From an unidentified eubacterium SCB49 (lineage in GTDB: Bacteria; Bacteroidota; Bacteroidia; Flavobacteriales; Flavobacteriaceae): DNA of 32,000 nucleotides. Below, one piece after another: positions 2,558 through 6,449 of the stretch; position 1 is the stretch's first letter; the number at the start of each line of letters is the position of its first letter. The translations under genes and the position numbers were made by a program. The stretch lies in assembly GCA_000170815.1 (NCBI GenBank), contig ABCO01000010.1, positions 81,652-113,651 on the forward strand, written 5' to 3'. The notes beneath the pieces were generated by a model, which ran no database searches, had not been told where the DNA came from, and worked only from the letters and a program-made list of their open reading frames with translations.

Positions 2558-2577
2558 GTTATAAAGATAAGGAGAAA

Positions 2578-2654
2578 GTTGTGAGTGGTTAGTAGTGAGT
2601 AGTGAGTTTTTAGTATTGAGTAGTTAGTATTGAGTGGTTAGTATTGAGTAATAC
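2578..2654. repeat. Degenerate heptad tandem repeat, 11 units (GTRRTKA: GTTGTGA GTGGTTA GTAGTGA GTAGTGA GTTTTTA GTATTGA GTAGTTA GTATTGA GTGGTTA GTATTGA GTAATAC)
   Basis: Read directly. The + strand has no C over 2578-2653, so the stretch is G-free in the sense of the minus-strand gene whose ATG lies 21 nt away at 2557. Confidence 0.85.
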
Positions 2655-2683
2655 GTATTAAATTCATAAATGAATTTCTCATT

Positions 2684-3508
2684 TTGTATTTTAACTAAAA
2701 CAGCAGCCTCTTGTCAGTCTGAGCGCAGTCGAAGACAATATTCTTCGCTATTTTAAAATTGTGGAGAGTTTCTTTCCTTTAACAATTTGGGCTTCACTAT
2801 GCATTTCGACTGCGCTCAATGTGACAAAAATTATTTTTTTTATTTCAACTAAAGCAGCAGCCCCTTGTCAGTCTGAGCGCAGTCGAAGACAATTTTATTC
2901 GCTATTTTAAAATAGTGGAGAATTACTTTCCTTTAACAATTTGGGCTTCACTATGCATTTCGACTGCGCTCAATGTGACAAAATTTAAAAGTTTGTTATT
3001 CAAGTAAAGCAGCAGCCCTTGTCAGTCTGAGCGCAGTCGAAGACAATTTTATTTGCTATTTTAAAATTGTGGAGAATTCCTTTCCTTTAACAATTTGGGC
3101 TTCTATACGCATTTCGACTGCGCTCAATGTGACAAAATTTAAAAGTTTGTTATTCAAGTAAAGCAGCAGCCCTTGTCAGTCTGAGCGCAGTCGAAGACAA
3201 TTTTCTTCGCTATTTTAAAATTGTGGAGAGTTTCTTTCCTTTAACAATTTAGGCTTCACTATGCATTTCGACTGCGCTCAATGTGACAAAAGTTAAAAGT
3301 TTGTATTTCAACTAAAGCCAAAGCATCTTGTCAGTCTGAGCGCAGTCGAAGACAATATTCTTCGCTATTTTAAAATTGTGGAGAGTTTCTTTCCTTTAAC
3401 AATTTAGGCTTCACTATGCATTTCGACTGCGCTCAATATGACAAAATTTAAAAGTTTATAATTCAACTAAACCCGAAGCCCTTTGTCAGTCTGAGCGCAG
3501 TCGAAGAC
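2684..3508. repeat. Array A: 5.3 tandem copies of a 154-155-bp palindromic (long-hairpin) unit
   Basis: The left arm GTCAGTCTGAGCGCAGTCGAAGAC starts at 2713, 2867, 3021, 3175, 3330 and 3485. The inverted partner TTTCGACTGCGCTCAATGTGAC starts at 2804, 2958, 3112, 3266 and 3421. The loop is 67 nt and the linker 41 nt. There is no ORF of 60 aa or more on either strand. Confidence 0.95.
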
Positions 3509-3527
3509 AATCATGTAGCAGAGAGCA

Positions 3528-4202
3528 TTAGTTGTTAATCATTTCAACCACCTTCAAAACTCCTGTACTTGCTTTTTCTGCTACTACGGTTAGTTTGCTA
3601 TTAGAAGACAAAGAGGGCTTAGGATCTACAAAATAAAGAGAAGCATGTTGGGGAGCGTATTGCATTAATCCAGCTGCAGGATATACTTGCATAGAGGTAC
3701 CTACAATAATAACGACATCAGCTTTTTCTACAATAGAGATTGCCTTGTCTAGTGCAGGAACTTCTTCGCCAAACCAAACAATATGCGGACGCCATTGATG
3801 TCCTTTTTCACATAAGTCGCCCACTTGTATGTCTTTGTCCCAATATTTAATGTCTTTACTGTTTCCGGAGCTACGTATTTTAAGGAGTTCGCCGTGAAGG
3901 TGTAGTACATTTTTACTTCCTGCCCGTTCGTGAAGATCATCTACGTTTTGAGTAATCACATACACATTGTGTTGTTCTTGCAATTGAGCTAGGGCTAAGT
4001 GTGCAGCATTCGGTTTTACTTCTAGTAACTGCCTACGGCGCTGGTTATAAAAATCTAAAACTAATGCTGGGTTTTTAGCAAAACCTTCTGGAGTGGCAAC
4101 CTCCATCACGTCGTGACCTTCCCATAAGCCATTAGCATCTCTAAAAGTTTTAATGCCGCTTTCTGCAGAGATACCAGCGCCTGTTAATATTGTGATGTTC
4201 AT
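3528..4202 (-). CDS. cobB: NAD-dependent protein deacylase, class III sirtuin (CobB/Sir2 family)
   Basis: 224 aa with GAGISAESGIKTFRD (NAD-binding), QNVDDLHERAG, catalytic HLHG, VWFGE and GTSMQVYPAA. It aligns colinearly by eye with E. coli CobB. A Y-x-x-R pair (FYNQRRR) is typical of class III deacylases. Confidence 0.92.
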   Translation of the reverse strand: MNITILTGAGISAESGIKTFRDANGLWEGHDVMEVATPEGFAKNPALVLDFYNQRRRQLLEVKPNAAHLALAQLQEQHNVYVITQNVDDLHERAGSKNVLHLHGELLKIRSSGNSKDIKYWDKDIQVGDLCEKGHQWRPHIVWFGEEVPALDKAISIVEKADVVIIVGTSMQVYPAAGLMQYAPQHASLYFVDPKPSLSSNSKLTVVAEKASTGVLKVVEMINN

Positions 4203-4274
4203 TTTTGTTTTGATTTTAATCGTTGGCTCTAAACCGTTAGTATTGTGTTTTATTCTGTGAGTAAAAATAGTGAT

Positions 4275-4918
4275 AAAGGTAACATTGCTGATTATTAAAA
4301 TAAAGTAGCTAATCTATATTCCATACTCCATATTCTATTTTCCAAAAATTAAGAGCTGTAATTTTCTTATTCTTCACAGTCATGTTGAGCCTGTCGAAGC
4401 ACAACAAACAGCAAGTAATTTTAATCCGTTAAGTATTGCCCTTCGACAAGCTCAGGGTGACTGTATCATTAATTAAGATAAAGTAACTTGTCTATACTCT
4501 ATATTCCATACTCCATATTCTATTTTCCAAAAATGAAGAGCTATAATTTATTTATTCTTCACAGTCATGCTGAGCCTGTCGAAGCACAACAAATAGCAAG
4601 TAATTTTAATCCGTTAAGTATTACCCTTCGACAAGCTCAGGGTGACTGTATCATTAATTAAGATAAAGTAACTTGTCTATACTCTATATTCCATACTCCA
4701 TATTCTATTTTCCAAAAAATAAGAGCTGTAATTTATTTATTCTTCACAGTCATGCTGAGCCTGTCGAAGCACAACAAACAGCAAGTAATTTTAATCAGTT
4801 AAGCATTGCCCTTCGACAAGCTCAGGGTGACATGCTGATTATTTGAGTAAAGCAAATCGTCTATATTCCATACTCTATTCTCCATATTCTATTTTCCAAT
4901 CGACAAGCTCAGGGTGAC
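4275..4918. repeat. Array B: 3 full plus partial copies of a 185-bp palindromic unit (second arm family)
   Basis: The left arm GTCATG(C/T)TGAGCCTGTCGAAGCAC starts at 4379, 4564 and 4749. The inverted partner (G/A)CCCTTCGACAAGCTCAGGGTGAC starts at 4438, 4623 and 4808. The loop is 35 nt. A truncated extra right arm lies at 4900-4918 and a degenerate remnant at 4278-4283. The roughly 50-nt flank at 4278-4327 is repeated at 4913-4962. Confidence 0.93.
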
Positions 4919-4947
4919 ATTGCTGATTATTAAAATAAAGTAGCTAG

Positions 4948-5010
4948 TCTATATTCCATACTCTATTCTCCATATTCCAAATACCTTACTCCACTCTTCA
5001 TTTTCTGTTT
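4948..5010. repeat. Degenerate heptad tract, about 9 units (TCTATAT TCCATAC TCTATTC TCCATAT TCCAAAT ACCTTAC TCCACTC TTCATTT TCTGTTT)
   Basis: Read directly. The + strand has no G over 4948-5006. The same heptads (TCTATAT TCCATAC TCCATAT TCTATTT TCCAAAA) occur in every array B unit, e.g. 4313-4347. Confidence 0.8.
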
Positions 5011-5072: not shown

Positions 5073-5771
5073 TTGCTTATTTTACAACTAAAATTACAGT
5101 ATATTTTGGATATAGAACTATTAGAATATTTAAAAGGTTTTTTAACCGAAGAACGTATGGAACGTTTTGAGAAAATACTTAGTGAACGCACCAAGCATTT
5201 TACGGTCGTTACAGAAGATGTGTATCAAATTCATAACACAAGTGCCGTAATGCGTTCTTGTGATGCTTTTGGGATTCAAGACTTACATCTTGTAGAGGAG
5301 AAGTTTGGAAAACGTGTAGACAAAGAGATTGCAATGGGGGCTCAAAAATGGGTAACGTTGCATAGACATTCTAATCTTGAAGACTGTGTTTCTACACTTA
5401 AAGATAAAGGATATCAGATTGTTGCTACCTCACCACACGCAGATGCAAGTTATTTGCATGATTTTGATTACACAAAGAAGAGTGCCATTTTCTTCGGAAC
5501 TGAAAAAGACGGATTAACAGAAGGTGTTTTAGAGCAAGCAGATGCGTTAATAAAAGTGCCGATGTATGGTTTTACCGAAAGTTTAAATATTTCTGTTTCT
5601 GCTGCTATTATTATGCAGCACTTAGTGACTAAGCTAAAATTAAGTGATATTGACTGGCGCATTTCCGAAGAAGAAAAACAAGAATTAGAGCTGCAATGGG
5701 CAAAAAATACGATTAAATCACATAAGAAAATAGTTGATCGCTTTAATGAAAATAGAGCCTTGAAAGGTTAA
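5073..5771 (+). CDS. trmH: SpoU/TrmH-family tRNA/rRNA 2'-O-ribose methyltransferase
   Basis: Contains HNTSAVMRSCDAFG, FFGTEKDGLT and VPMYGFTESLNISVSAAI, the three SPOUT/SpoU motifs, and aligns with E. coli TrmH from about MERFEKIL. The start is uncertain: ATG 5073, TTG 5106 or ATG 5157. Confidence 0.88.
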   Translation: MLILQLKLQYILDIELLEYLKGFLTEERMERFEKILSERTKHFTVVTEDVYQIHNTSAVMRSCDAFGIQDLHLVEEKFGKRVDKEIAMGAQKWVTLHRHSNLEDCVSTLKDKGYQIVATSPHADASYLHDFDYTKKSAIFFGTEKDGLTEGVLEQADALIKVPMYGFTESLNISVSAAIIMQHLVTKLKLSDIDWRISEEEKQELELQWAKNTIKSHKKIVDRFNENRALKG

Positions 5772-6358: not shown

Positions 6359-6449
6359 ACTCAATACTCACTACTCACTACTCACTACTCACCACTCACC
6401 ACTAACCACTCACTACTAATCACTCACCACTAACCACTCAATACTAATT
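6359..6449. repeat. Degenerate heptad tandem repeat, 13 units (ACTCAAT ACTCACT x3 ACTCACC x2 ACTAACC ACTCACT ACTAATC ACTCACC ACTAACC ACTCAAT ACTAATT)
   Basis: The register was verified base by base. It is 91 nt with no G on the + strand and fills the whole spacer between the upstream stop (6354-6356) and the rdgB ATG (6452). Confidence 0.9.

What the first reader, a model, noticed from the sequence alone, without database searches (positions are those of the whole stretch)
4275..4962. Array B: a second, distinct palindromic-unit array (185-bp period) on the other side of cobB
Read directly from the sequence. The left arm GTCATG(C/T)TGAGCCTGTCGAAGCAC starts at 4379, 4564 and 4749 (period 185). 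The inverted partner CCCTTCGACAAGCTCAGGGTGAC starts at 4438, 4623 and 4808, with a 35-nt loop. A truncated fourth right arm (TCGACAAGCTCAGGGTGAC, 4900-4918) is fused directly to a heptad tract. A decayed right-arm end (GGTAAC at 4278-4283) opens the array. The ~50 nt that follow it (ATTGCTGATTATTAAAATAAAGTAGCTA + TCTATATTCCATACT) are repeated at 4919-4962, so the array is bounded by direct repeats. Every unit also carries a five-heptad G-free tract (TCTATAT TCCATAC TCCATAT TCTATTT TCCAAAA). The stem has a T:G wobble plus a G/G mismatch after GTCA:TGAC and a single C/A mismatch inside the stem, at the same relative position in every copy. The array occupies about 650 bp of the 870-bp spacer between the divergently oriented cobB and trmH-like genes, where their promoters must also lie.
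Basis: partly seen in the sequence, partly recalled or inferred. Interest (0 to 1): 0.68.

Follow-up and report, generated by a model that had tools for sequence, protein, structure and literature searches.

The report
Tandem array of Ssn-type hairpin repeats
The array is real: it is a locally amplified cluster of small GTCA-tagged hairpin repeats, the kind that in other bacteria flank tiny GIY-YIG single-strand DNA nucleases, so it is most likely selfish or recombination-related repeat DNA rather than a dedicated regulator of the two neighbouring genes.

Summary
Array B exists as described. It has three full units of about 185 bp, one truncated unit and one decayed unit, and it fills the Sir2(cobB)/SpoU(trmH) divergent spacer of a marine Flavobacteriaceae genome.

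Each "arm" is an independent ~27-nt module, (T/C)GTCA-abc-TGAGCYTGTCGAA-c'b'a'. The three flanking base pairs covary (14 stem types). Array A uses the same grammar.

The module occurs in more than 15 bacterial phyla and in phage contigs. In 9 of 9 cases, a ~95-aa single-domain GIY-YIG gene of one subfamily is flanked on both sides by head-out modules. This is the architecture published in 2025 for Ssn ssDNA nucleases and their "SRM" hairpins, and in 2013 for CGTC/TGTC-tagged REPs.

Two related genomes carry one unit at the same site, and a third carries none, so this lineage amplified an older insertion.

The module does not match the published SRM consensus (0 of 679), so it is a variant of a known kind.

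Not shown: cleavage by Ssn, an ssn gene in this genome, or any effect on cobB/trmH.

The parts
3528..4202 (-). Sir2-family deacylase gene ('cobB'), left flank of the spacer
   Evidence: Pfam PF02146, E=2e-45. Homologues are Flavobacteriaceae Sir2 proteins.
4278..4283 (-). Decayed head of an arm (GGTAAC in place of GGTGAC) that opens the array
   Evidence: Read from the sequence. It is followed by the same S segment that follows every intact right arm.
4284..4461 (.). Unit 1: S segment 4284-4312, five G-free heptads 4313-4347, connector 4348-4378, left arm 4379-4402, loop 4403-4437, right arm 4438-4461
4462..4646 (.). Unit 2 (185 bp): S 4462-4490, six heptads 4491-4532, connector 4533-4563, left arm 4564-4587, loop 4588-4622, right arm 4623-4646
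4647..4831 (.). Unit 3 (185 bp): S 4647-4675, heptads 4676-4717, connector 4718-4748, left arm 4749-4772, loop 4773-4807, right arm 4808-4831
4832..4918 (.). Truncated unit 4: S 4832-4859 and heptads 4860-4899, joined directly to a partial right arm at 4900-4918 (TCGACAAGCTCAGGGTGAC). Connector, left arm and loop are missing.
4919..5010 (.). Terminal partial unit: S copy 4919-4947 (near-identical to 4284-4312), then a heptad tract that decays toward trmH
4564..4590 (+). Example of a left-arm module. The 5'-GTCA head is on the + strand: GTCA-TGC-TGAGCCTGTCGAA-GCA-C. The same module lies at 4379-4405 and 4749-4775.
   Evidence: Module scan. Grammar and covariation.
4620..4646 (-). Example of a right-arm module. 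The 5'-GTCA head is on the - strand: GTCA-CCC-TGAGCTTGTCGAA-GGG-T. The same module lies at 4435-4461 and 4805-4831. Heads point outward, so each unit is a head-out heterodimer.
5073..5771 (+). SpoU/TrmH-type methyltransferase gene, right flank (the start codon is uncertain)
   Evidence: Pfam PF00588, E=8e-38. The exact product is not on record, so the called start may differ.
2683..3511 (.). Array A: 154-bp period, 5.4 copies. Its arms follow the same grammar with a 14-nt core (TTCGACTGCGCTCA) and stems GTC/GAC and CAT/ATG.
24243..24324 (.). A solitary intact module (24243-24269, CCC/GGG type) with a decayed inverted partner (24299-24324), heads inward. It lies between the phosphoglucomutase and ABC-transporter genes.

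Best explanation
Array B is a tandem amplification of an intergenic cassette. The core of the cassette is a head-out inverted pair of two ~27-nt GTCA-tagged hairpin modules. These modules belong to the class of repeats described as CGTC/TGTC-tagged REPs, and since 2025 as Ssn-related motifs (SRM). SRMs are hairpins that flank small single-domain GIY-YIG nucleases (Ssn), and those nucleases recognise them as single-stranded DNA. The gene-less pair in each unit stands to the 'module-GIY-YIG gene-module' arrangement as a REPIN stands to its RAYT.

History. One pair, together with a heptad microsatellite, sat in the Sir2/SpoU spacer of the common ancestor of this genome and two relatives. In this lineage the cassette was reiterated to about 3 full copies plus partial copies. 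The likely cause is unequal recombination or replication slippage between the repeated S+heptad flanks and the hairpins.

Mechanism. As duplex DNA the array is inert. When the region is single-stranded (lagging-strand synthesis, transformation or conjugation, repair), each arm or the 82-nt two-arm hairpin folds and offers binding and cleavage sites for a cognate Ssn-type nuclease. The resulting nicks or stalls favour local rearrangement and spread. Any effect on cobB or trmH expression is incidental.

Shown:
- the anatomy of the array;
- the module grammar and covariation;
- the distribution across phyla and phages;
- the flanking of GIY-YIG genes;
- the single-copy orthologous units and the empty site.

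Inferred:
- that those GIY-YIG proteins are Ssn enzymes that cut this hairpin;
- that the source genome encodes one;
- the amplification mechanism;
- the lack of a regulatory role.
For: 1. All arms of arrays A and B and the solitary copy fit abc-TTCGAC-N2-3-GCTCA-c'b'a'-TGAC.

2. Across fetched loci, 212 of 256 instances have complementary triplets of 14 types, and TGAC follows in 230 of 256. On 146 distinct instances the covariation score is 0.277 against 0.116 in shuffles (0 of 500 reach it), and slid controls are at most 0.11.

It also hit 55 stretches of viral contigs.

4. A profile of the small GIY-YIG ORFs finds 9 members in 2.2 Mb of loci. All 9 are flanked within about 150 nt on both sides by modules, in most cases in inverted, head-out orientation. 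They are 90-120 aa (90-113 for the eight intact ORFs) and the three tested carry PF01541 only.

5. Flavobacteriaceae encode homologues. In one Flavobacteriaceae MAG (L305) the gene is flanked by TGAGCGGAGTCGAA modules. Winogradskyella and Lacinutrix use another GTCA-headed hairpin.

6. The published system has the same architecture, the same 5' GTCA tag and ssDNA-only cleavage 5' of the hairpin (PMC11893778). The published REP survey describes TGTC/CGTC-tagged elements with these properties: HH heterodimers are common; clusters are formed by dimers reiterated in tandem with flanking DNA; the elements occur in Bacteroidetes; and they are not linked to Y1 transposases (PMC3733652).

7. L122 and L125/L126 carry one unit at the same site and in the same orientation. 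L123/L124 carry none there, but L123 has an A-type unit at a locus that is empty in the window.

8. An analogous array of module dimers, 127 bp x 5.9 copies, exists in another Bacteroidota genome (L061).
Against: - No GIY-YIG gene lies in the 32-kb window, and the rest of the genome could not be read.
- The module fails the published degenerate SRM search sequence: 0 of 679 instances, while NTS and NTSvar controls match.
- Single arms are not predicted to be stable hairpins on their own (z about 0 to -1.3). The stem is supported by covariation only.
- Whether the flanked nucleases fall in cd10448 (Ssn) rather than the neighbouring UPF0213 group is unresolved. The nearest solved structures are UPF0213 proteins.
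- No insertion boundaries or target duplications could be defined, so mobility is inferred from presence/absence only.
- The unit is about as conserved between genomes (77-83%) as the Sir2 coding sequence (77-79%). This could reflect a host function.
Confidence: 0.65

Rival explanations
1. Each unit is a classical MITE. The two arms are terminal inverted repeats recognised by a DDE transposase encoded elsewhere, and the array arose from repeated insertion or duplication.
For: - The ends read TGTCA...TGACA, which resembles TG...CA transposon termini.
- Presence/absence polymorphism between relatives, and an A-type unit at a different locus.
- Arms are far better conserved than loops.
Against: - Each arm is individually structured, with its own covarying stem.
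- Arms occur singly, in either relative orientation, and as short direct arrays.
- The two arms of a unit are heterotypic.
- The only gene family found between head-out arms repeatedly is a GIY-YIG nuclease, not a DDE enzyme.
- No target-site duplication was seen.
Confidence: 0.1
2. The array is a functional cis-acting RNA or DNA element for the divergent cobB/trmH pair. It could be an insulator or terminator, an mRNA-stabilising 5' structure, or a source of small RNAs, with copy number tuning expression.
For: - The two-arm hairpin is very stable on both strands (z -4.9 to -7.5).
- It sits where both promoters must lie.
- One unit is retained at the same site in two relatives, at coding-like identity.
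- G-T/G-U pairs extend the arm stems on one strand only.
Against: - No Rfam family matches at the gathering threshold, and only far-sub-threshold hits appear with a relaxed E-value.
- No terminator-like T-run was found, and promoter-like hits do not exceed shuffles.
- No clear Bacteroidota -7 motif lies inside the units.
- An equally close relative lacks the unit and keeps the same gene pair about 200 bp apart.
- The same arms occur at unrelated loci, in many phyla and in phages.
Confidence: 0.12
3. It is a REP/BIME (REPIN) cluster maintained by a RAYT (Y1/HUH tyrosine transposase).
For: - The overall organisation is the same: small hairpins, inverted dimers, and clusters reiterated in tandem (PMC3733652).
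Against: - The tag is (T/C)GTCA, not GTAG.
- The published survey found CGTC-type repeats not linked to tyrosine transposases.
- tblastn with IS608 TnpA and E. coli RAYT found nothing in 2.2 Mb of module-bearing loci.
Confidence: 0.04
4. The copy number, or the array itself, is an assembly artefact of a repeat collapsed or expanded by the assembler.
For: - An independent short-read assembly of the same organism ends inside both arrays.
Against: - That contig is 100% identical through the array edges.
- The units differ from each other at specific positions, and unit 4 has a distinct junction.
- Orthologous single units exist in other assemblies.
Confidence: 0.05

Closest known systems
Ssn-related motifs (SRM; Neisseria NTS/dRS3) with SsnA GIY-YIG ssDNA nucleases (Chenal et al., Nat Commun 2025, PMC11893778)
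   Same: - A 5' (C/T)GTCA tag directly before a ~21-nt imperfect palindrome.
- Motifs flank a ~95-aa single-domain GIY-YIG gene on both sides.
- Many gene-less copies are dispersed and clustered in intergenic DNA.
- The distribution is wide across phyla.
   Different: - The hairpin body is TGAGCYTGTCGAA. It has a tandem G.A/A.G in the stem, a CYTGT loop and only three freely covarying pairs.
- It matches the published degenerate SRM pattern in 0 of 679 instances.
- No conserved C follows the palindrome.
- Cleavage has not been tested, and no ssn gene has been seen in this genome.
CGTC/TGTC-tagged REP superfamily, including Neisseria dRS3/NIME arrays and Rickettsia RPE-4/6 (Di Nocera et al. 2013, PMC3733652)
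   Same: - The terminal tag, and the geometry of an 8-position stem with a 5-nt loop.
- Predominance of head-out dimers, frequent heterodimers, and clusters made of dimers reiterated with flanking DNA.
- Presence in Bacteroidetes, and no Y1 transposase partner.
   Different: - The stem contains two non-Watson-Crick positions.
- No conserved 'CCA' tail is present.
- Units here carry a heptad microsatellite.
REP/BIME and REPIN-RAYT systems of Proteobacteria
   Same: A small hairpin repeat plus a single-copy nuclease gene bracketed by inverted copies; gene-less inverted dimers as the replicating unit; tandem clusters.
   Different: The tag differs (GTAG) and the enzyme differs (HUH tyrosine transposase versus GIY-YIG).
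Small dispersed repeats (SDR) embedded in heptamer tandem repeats of Nostoc (Elhai et al. 2008; recalled from memory, the paper was not held)
   Same: Elements of 21-27 nt with a structure supported by compensatory changes, often sitting inside heptameric tandem repeats or mini-transposons.
   Different: A different phylum and different sequences. No nuclease partner was described. The resemblance was not tested here.

Membership tests
SRM / Ssn system | A conserved 5' HGTCW tag immediately upstream of the palindrome, which gives the motif an orientation | tested here: met
   G2, T3, C4 and A5 are each at least 90% conserved in 146 distinct instances. TGAC follows 230 of 256 cores in the opposite orientation. 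All window arms carry the tag.
SRM / Ssn system | A 20-50-nt inverted repeat able to form a hairpin | tested here: met
   The three variable pairs covary (CG 70/UA 54/GC 8; CG 98/GC 26/AU 9/UA 5). The score is 0.277 against 0.116 in shuffles, with 0 of 500 reaching it. Caveat: single arms are not predicted to be stable by nearest-neighbour energies.
SRM / Ssn system | A match to the published degenerate SRM search sequence HGTCWYN(0-2)YYVSBRHN(0-5)WNVSBRGN(0-2)RNCYNB | tested here: not met
   0 of 679 module instances match, and none of the four window arm types do. The NTS and NTSvar positive controls match. This is an operational search pattern rather than a biological definition.
SRM / Ssn system | Motifs flank a small single-domain GIY-YIG gene on both sides | tested here: met
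   9 of 9 genes of the subfamily in 2.2 Mb of loci, plus the Flavobacteriaceae locus L305. This could not be tested in the source genome, because no such gene lies in the window.
SRM / Ssn system | The nuclease belongs to the cd10448 (Ssn) clade | tested here: inconclusive
   PF01541 is the only domain in the three flanked proteins tested, and the flanked ORFs are 90-120 aa. No NCBIfam model matches. The nearest solved structures are UPF0213 proteins 1ZG2 and 1YWL.
SRM / Ssn system | Binding and cleavage of the motif as ssDNA only, a few nucleotides 5' of the tag | not testable with these tools
   This needs a biochemical assay.
CGTC/TGTC-tagged REPs | A terminal CGTC (or TGTC/CCTC) tag | tested here: met
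   Column 1 is mostly T, then C.
CGTC/TGTC-tagged REPs | A stem of 8-9 bp starting with A-T pairs, and a loop of 4-5 nt | tested here: inconclusive
   The geometry fits: 8 stem positions and a 5-nt CYTGT loop. However, positions 6-7 are G.A/A.G, and the first pair is A-T in only 61 of 146 instances.
CGTC/TGTC-tagged REPs | A short unpaired 3' tail, consensus CCA | tested here: not met
   Columns 26-29 are not conserved.
REPIN / RAYT | A GTAG tag and a Y1 tyrosine transposase bracketed by the repeats | tested here: not met
   The tag is GTCA.
MITE (DDE transposon derivative) | Target-site duplication, and a cognate transposase with the same terminal inverted repeats | tested here: inconclusive
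   Comparison of filled and empty sites gave no clean boundaries or duplication. No transposase was found between arms.
CRISPR array | A short repeat alternating with unique spacers | tested here: not met
   The whole 185-bp unit, 'spacer' included, is repeated at 85-96% identity.
Any Rfam RNA family | A score at or above the gathering threshold | tested here: not met
   No hits in the window at the gathering threshold. At relaxed E-value the best hit scores 28 bits against a threshold of 97.

The most novel reading that the evidence does not exclude
The TGAGCYTGTCGAA hairpin is an uncatalogued class of Ssn target. It is pan-bacterial and also carried by phages. It has a structured loop (tandem G.A) and a 3-bp variable 'address' that covaries freely. 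Its cognate ~95-aa GIY-YIG nucleases would be new ssDNA specificities. Tandem clusters such as array B would be hot spots of nuclease-triggered single-strand breaks that shape recombination, or uptake of foreign ssDNA, around particular genes in Flavobacteriaceae.
Probability: 0.3. Interest if true: 0.6.

Novelty: new variant of a known kind. Interest (0 to 1): 0.42.

Why it matters
The array explains two large repeat arrays in this window as one phenomenon. It also removes the need to invoke a bespoke regulator of cobB or trmH.

More generally, it points to a hairpin class that the published SRM search pattern misses. This class nevertheless shows the same gene-bracketing architecture across many phyla and in phages.

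If the associated GIY-YIG proteins cut it, three things follow:
- the catalogue of site-specific ssDNA nucleases and their sites, which are of interest as ssDNA tools, is larger than reported;
- these very common repeats are a frequent source of spurious small ORFs and of assembly breaks, and they could then be annotated systematically;
- a role for Ssn-type systems in Bacteroidota and their phages becomes testable.

Tried and rejected
- Cyanobacterial origin and STRR/SDR identity, my first guess from the heptads. Rejected: the window is 34% GC with BamP, SusC-like and MORN_2 proteins, and its Sir2 homologues are Flavobacteriaceae.
- Known RNA families. None matched.
- Hammerhead or other ribozyme cores. 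Inspection showed the core positions do not fit.
- Full-text searches for the arm sequences and for the peptides they encode (LRQAQ, FDKLR). These found nothing relevant.
- The Elhai 2008 SDR paper. It could not be read.
- Similarity of the GGA-type arm to the 5' end of 16S rRNA. Judged coincidental, because it holds for one stem type only.
- RAYT/IS200 transposases. No hits.
- Defining insertion boundaries from filled and empty sites. The flanks are too diverged.
- Promoter and terminator scans. Uninformative.
- Exact-protein look-up of the trmH product. Not on record.
- A profile search for GIY-YIG genes in the phage pieces. None found.
- Supplementary tables of the Ssn paper. Not held.

Full report
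**1. The observation**

The region 4275-4962 holds a tandem array. TRF reports a 185-bp period at 4313-4899, 3.2 copies, 92% matches. The repeat finder places three in-register 185-nt copies at 100%, 96% and 85% identity.

Dissection of the sequence gives this order:
- a decayed arm end, GGTAAC, at 4278-4283;
- unit 1 at 4284-4461;
- unit 2 at 4462-4646;
- unit 3 at 4647-4831;
- a truncated unit 4 at 4832-4918, in which the heptad tract is joined directly to a partial arm at 4900-4918;
- a terminal partial unit from 4919.

Each full unit consists of, in order:
- a 29-nt S segment;
- a G-free heptad tract (five heptads in unit 1, six in units 2 and 3);
- a 31-nt connector;
- a 24-nt left arm;
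- a 35-nt loop;
- a 24-nt right arm.

The arm 19-mer occurs 7 times in the window (up to 3 mismatches), against none in 100 shuffles. The two-arm hairpin is far more stable than shuffled sequence on either strand, as RNA or as DNA.

An independent short-read assembly of the same organism (L001) is identical across 3408-4342 but ends inside both arrays. The flanks are therefore corroborated, but copy number is not.

**2. Context**

The flanking genes are a Sir2-family deacylase (3528-4202, minus strand) and a SpoU/TrmH methyltransferase (5073-5771, plus strand).

The window is 34% GC and encodes BamP-like, SusC-N-terminal-like and MORN_2 proteins. The nearest named Sir2 homologues are from Ulvibacter, Aequorivita and Algibacter. 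The source is therefore a marine Flavobacteriaceae, not a cyanobacterium as the heptads first suggested.

**3. The arms are independent modules**

A scan of the window shows that every arm of array B, every arm of array A (2683-3511) and a solitary copy at 24243-24269 fit one grammar: abc-TTCGAC-N2-3-GCTCA-c'b'a'-TGAC. The three bases on either side of a 13-14-nt core are complementary to each other.
- Array B uses TGC/GCA in its left arms and CCC/GGG in its right arms.
- Array A uses GTC/GAC and CAT/ATG.

They are where two different, internally consistent stems face each other in the long hairpin.

Read in the 5'-GTCA orientation, the module is (T/C)GTC-A-abc-T-G-A-G-CYTGT-C-G-A-A-c'b'a'-Y. 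That is an eight-position stem containing a tandem G.A/A.G, closed by a G-C pair around a five-base loop.

**4. Distribution and covariation**

The hits come from Bacteroidota, Eremiobacterota/Vulcanimicrobiota, Verrucomicrobiota, Chloroflexota, Nitrospirota, Acidobacteriota, Patescibacteria, Proteobacteria, Spirochaetota, Elusimicrobiota and others.

A lineage-restricted 26-mer also hit the limit in metagenomes. The 20-mer occurs in 55 stretches of viral contigs.

With the flanks left free, 212 of 256 instances have complementary triplets of 14 different types, and TGAC follows in 230 of 256.

On 146 distinct instances the three variable pairs show abundant double changes (for example CG 70, UA 54, GC 8). 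The covariation score is 0.277 against 0.116 in shuffles (0 of 500 reach it), and at most 0.11 when partners are slid.

Single arms are nevertheless not predicted to fold stably on their own. The stem rests on comparative evidence, and presumably on a protein partner.

**5. The partner gene**

A profile built from the nine that belong to one subfamily found no others in 2.2 Mb.

All nine are flanked within about 150 nt on both sides by modules, in most cases with the heads outward. The tenth gene belongs to a different subfamily and has no modules nearby.

The ORFs are 90-120 aa, and the three tested carry only PF01541. The nearest solved structures are UPF0213 proteins.

Homologues are common in Flavobacteriaceae.
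- In a Flavobacteriaceae MAG (L305) the gene is bracketed by TGAGCGGAGTCGAA modules, which have the 14-nt core type of array A.
- In Winogradskyella (L302) and Lacinutrix (L304) the gene is bracketed by a different hairpin that is also GTCA-headed.

No Y1 transposase was detected in the loci (a weak negative).

**6. What is known**

Di Nocera et al. 2013 (PMC3733652) described a superfamily of REPs tagged by CGTC or TGTC. Its properties are:
- stems of 8-9 bp and loops of 4-5 nt;
- mostly head-out dimers, often heterodimers;
- clusters made of dimers reiterated in tandem with flanking DNA;
- presence in five phyla, including Bacteroidetes;
- no link to tyrosine transposases.

Chenal et al. 2025 (PMC11893778) showed the following:
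- Such repeats (Neisseria NTS/dRS3, and SRM in general) bracket ssnA, a 94-aa single-domain GIY-YIG nuclease.
- SsnA binds the hairpin only as ssDNA, and cuts a few nucleotides 5' of the tag.
- In N. meningitidis it restricts transforming ssDNA.
- The authors note that the NTS-ssnA-NTS architecture resembles an insertion sequence.

The module found here shares the tag, the geometry and the bracketing architecture. It fails their degenerate search pattern in 0 of 679 instances, while their own NTS and NTSvar pass. It is therefore best filed as a variant hairpin class of that kind. Membership of the nuclease in cd10448 remains untested.

**7. History of this locus**

Synteny (SpoU, Sir2, a 187-189-aa ORF, ABC transporter) is conserved in three related assemblies.
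- L122 (Sir2 85% identical) and L125/L126 (81%) each carry exactly one B-type unit, in the same orientation and at the same place, next to related heptads.
- L123/L124 (85%) carry no unit there. They have a ~200-bp spacer with a different heptad.
- L123 does carry an A-type unit, with arms identical to those of array A and a diverged loop. It sits between the DEAD-box helicase and carboxypeptidase-regulatory-like genes, a site that is empty in the window.

The units are thus dispersed, gained or lost as blocks, and older than the array. The window lineage multiplied a resident copy.

Nucleotide identity of the unit between genomes (77-83%) is similar to that of the Sir2 coding sequence (77-79%). 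This may reflect constraint on the arms or homogenisation with other copies.

A comparable array of module dimers, 127 bp x 5.9 copies, exists in another Bacteroidota genome.

**8. Function**

No Rfam family matches. No terminator-like site was found, promoter-like sites do not exceed shuffles, and no clear Bacteroidota -7 box lies within the units.

The most economical reading is repeat DNA of the Ssn/REP kind, whose activity is at the ssDNA level. Any influence on cobB or trmH would be a by-product.

The regulatory alternative cannot be excluded without transcript mapping. It is weakened by the relative that lacks the unit, and by the presence of the same arms at unrelated loci and in phages.

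**9. Verdict**

- The element is a new variant of a known kind.
- Interest is moderate. It lies mainly in the uncatalogued hairpin class and its breadth, not in this particular array.

Noticed in passing
window 2683-3511: Array A (154-bp period, 5.4 copies) lies on the other side of Sir2. It is built from the same module grammar with a 14-nt core (TTCGACTGCGCTCA) and stems GTC/GAC and CAT/ATG. An A-type unit with identical arms sits at a different locus in a relative (L123 4022-4160).
   Followed up: partly
window 2577-2659, 6366-6447 and the H tracts of array B; L122 10750-11150, L123 9650-9870, L125 8850-9100: Heptad microsatellites are common at gene ends in this group of Flavobacteriaceae (AGTAGTG/AGTATTG, ACTCACC, TCCATAY here; GATTGTG, TTTCACT, TCTTCCA and CTAATGC in relatives). 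They differ in sequence between relatives at the same sites.
   Followed up: no
window 24243-24324: A solitary intact module has a decayed partner in the heads-inward arrangement. It lies in the 132-nt gap between the phosphoglucomutase and ABC-transporter genes.
   Followed up: partly
L269, L272, L276, L282, L284, L286 (IMG/VR contigs, 39-42% GC): One phage group carries more than 15 modules per ~10 kb, with many stem types (CAC, CAT, TGG, TAC, GTC, TCT, TGT, CTC ...). They are often back-to-back hairpins with complementary loops, placed in short intergenic gaps just upstream of start codons. No GIY-YIG gene was found in the fetched pieces.
   Followed up: partly
L018 2040-2590 (Solirubrum puertoriconensis): A head-out module pair with extended stems encloses a 133-aa ORF that matches Immunity protein 50 (PF15594, E=4e-8). 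This is a cargo other than the nuclease.
   Followed up: partly
L125 7560-7600 / L126: In the orthologous unit of this relative, the core of the CCC-type arm (TGAGCTT) is replaced by another mini-hairpin (GGTCCCGAAGTGTCGGGA). A similar TCCCG...CGGGA hairpin lies downstream of Sir2 in the same locus.
   Followed up: no
L003, L028, L084, L107, L287, L288 and window 4900-4918: Head-proximal fragments of the module (GCTCAGGRTGAC, or whole 26-30-nt modules) are often reiterated in short direct arrays next to a full copy. The truncated fourth arm of array B looks like the same phenomenon. This may be a footprint of breakage and slipped repair next to the tag.
   Followed up: no
L304 400-1800 (Lacinutrix jangbogonensis): Two tandem copies of a GIY-YIG gene, each with its own GTCA-headed hairpins (GTCACTTCGAGTGGTTT...). 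The gene-plus-repeat cassette can itself be tandemly amplified.
   Followed up: no
window arms; metagenome loci L127-L246: In this lineage the bases 5' of the core in the TTCGAC orientation read GTTG. They pair with TGAC through two G-T wobbles, on the strand opposite to the one carrying the 5'-GTCA tag. On the tag strand the same positions are C.A/A.C mismatches, while the tandem G.A favours the tag strand. It remains unexplained which strand's structure is selected.
   Followed up: no
L001 (Logan SRR9433258 contig, equal to window 3408-4342); L123 3939-4070; ORF ends in L023, L109, L206: The repeats break short-read assemblies at both arrays. They also generate spurious or extended ORFs: a 43-aa 'gene' was called across a unit, and GIY-YIG ORFs read on into the module as ...PSTGSG or ...HPEPVEG.
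   Followed up: partly
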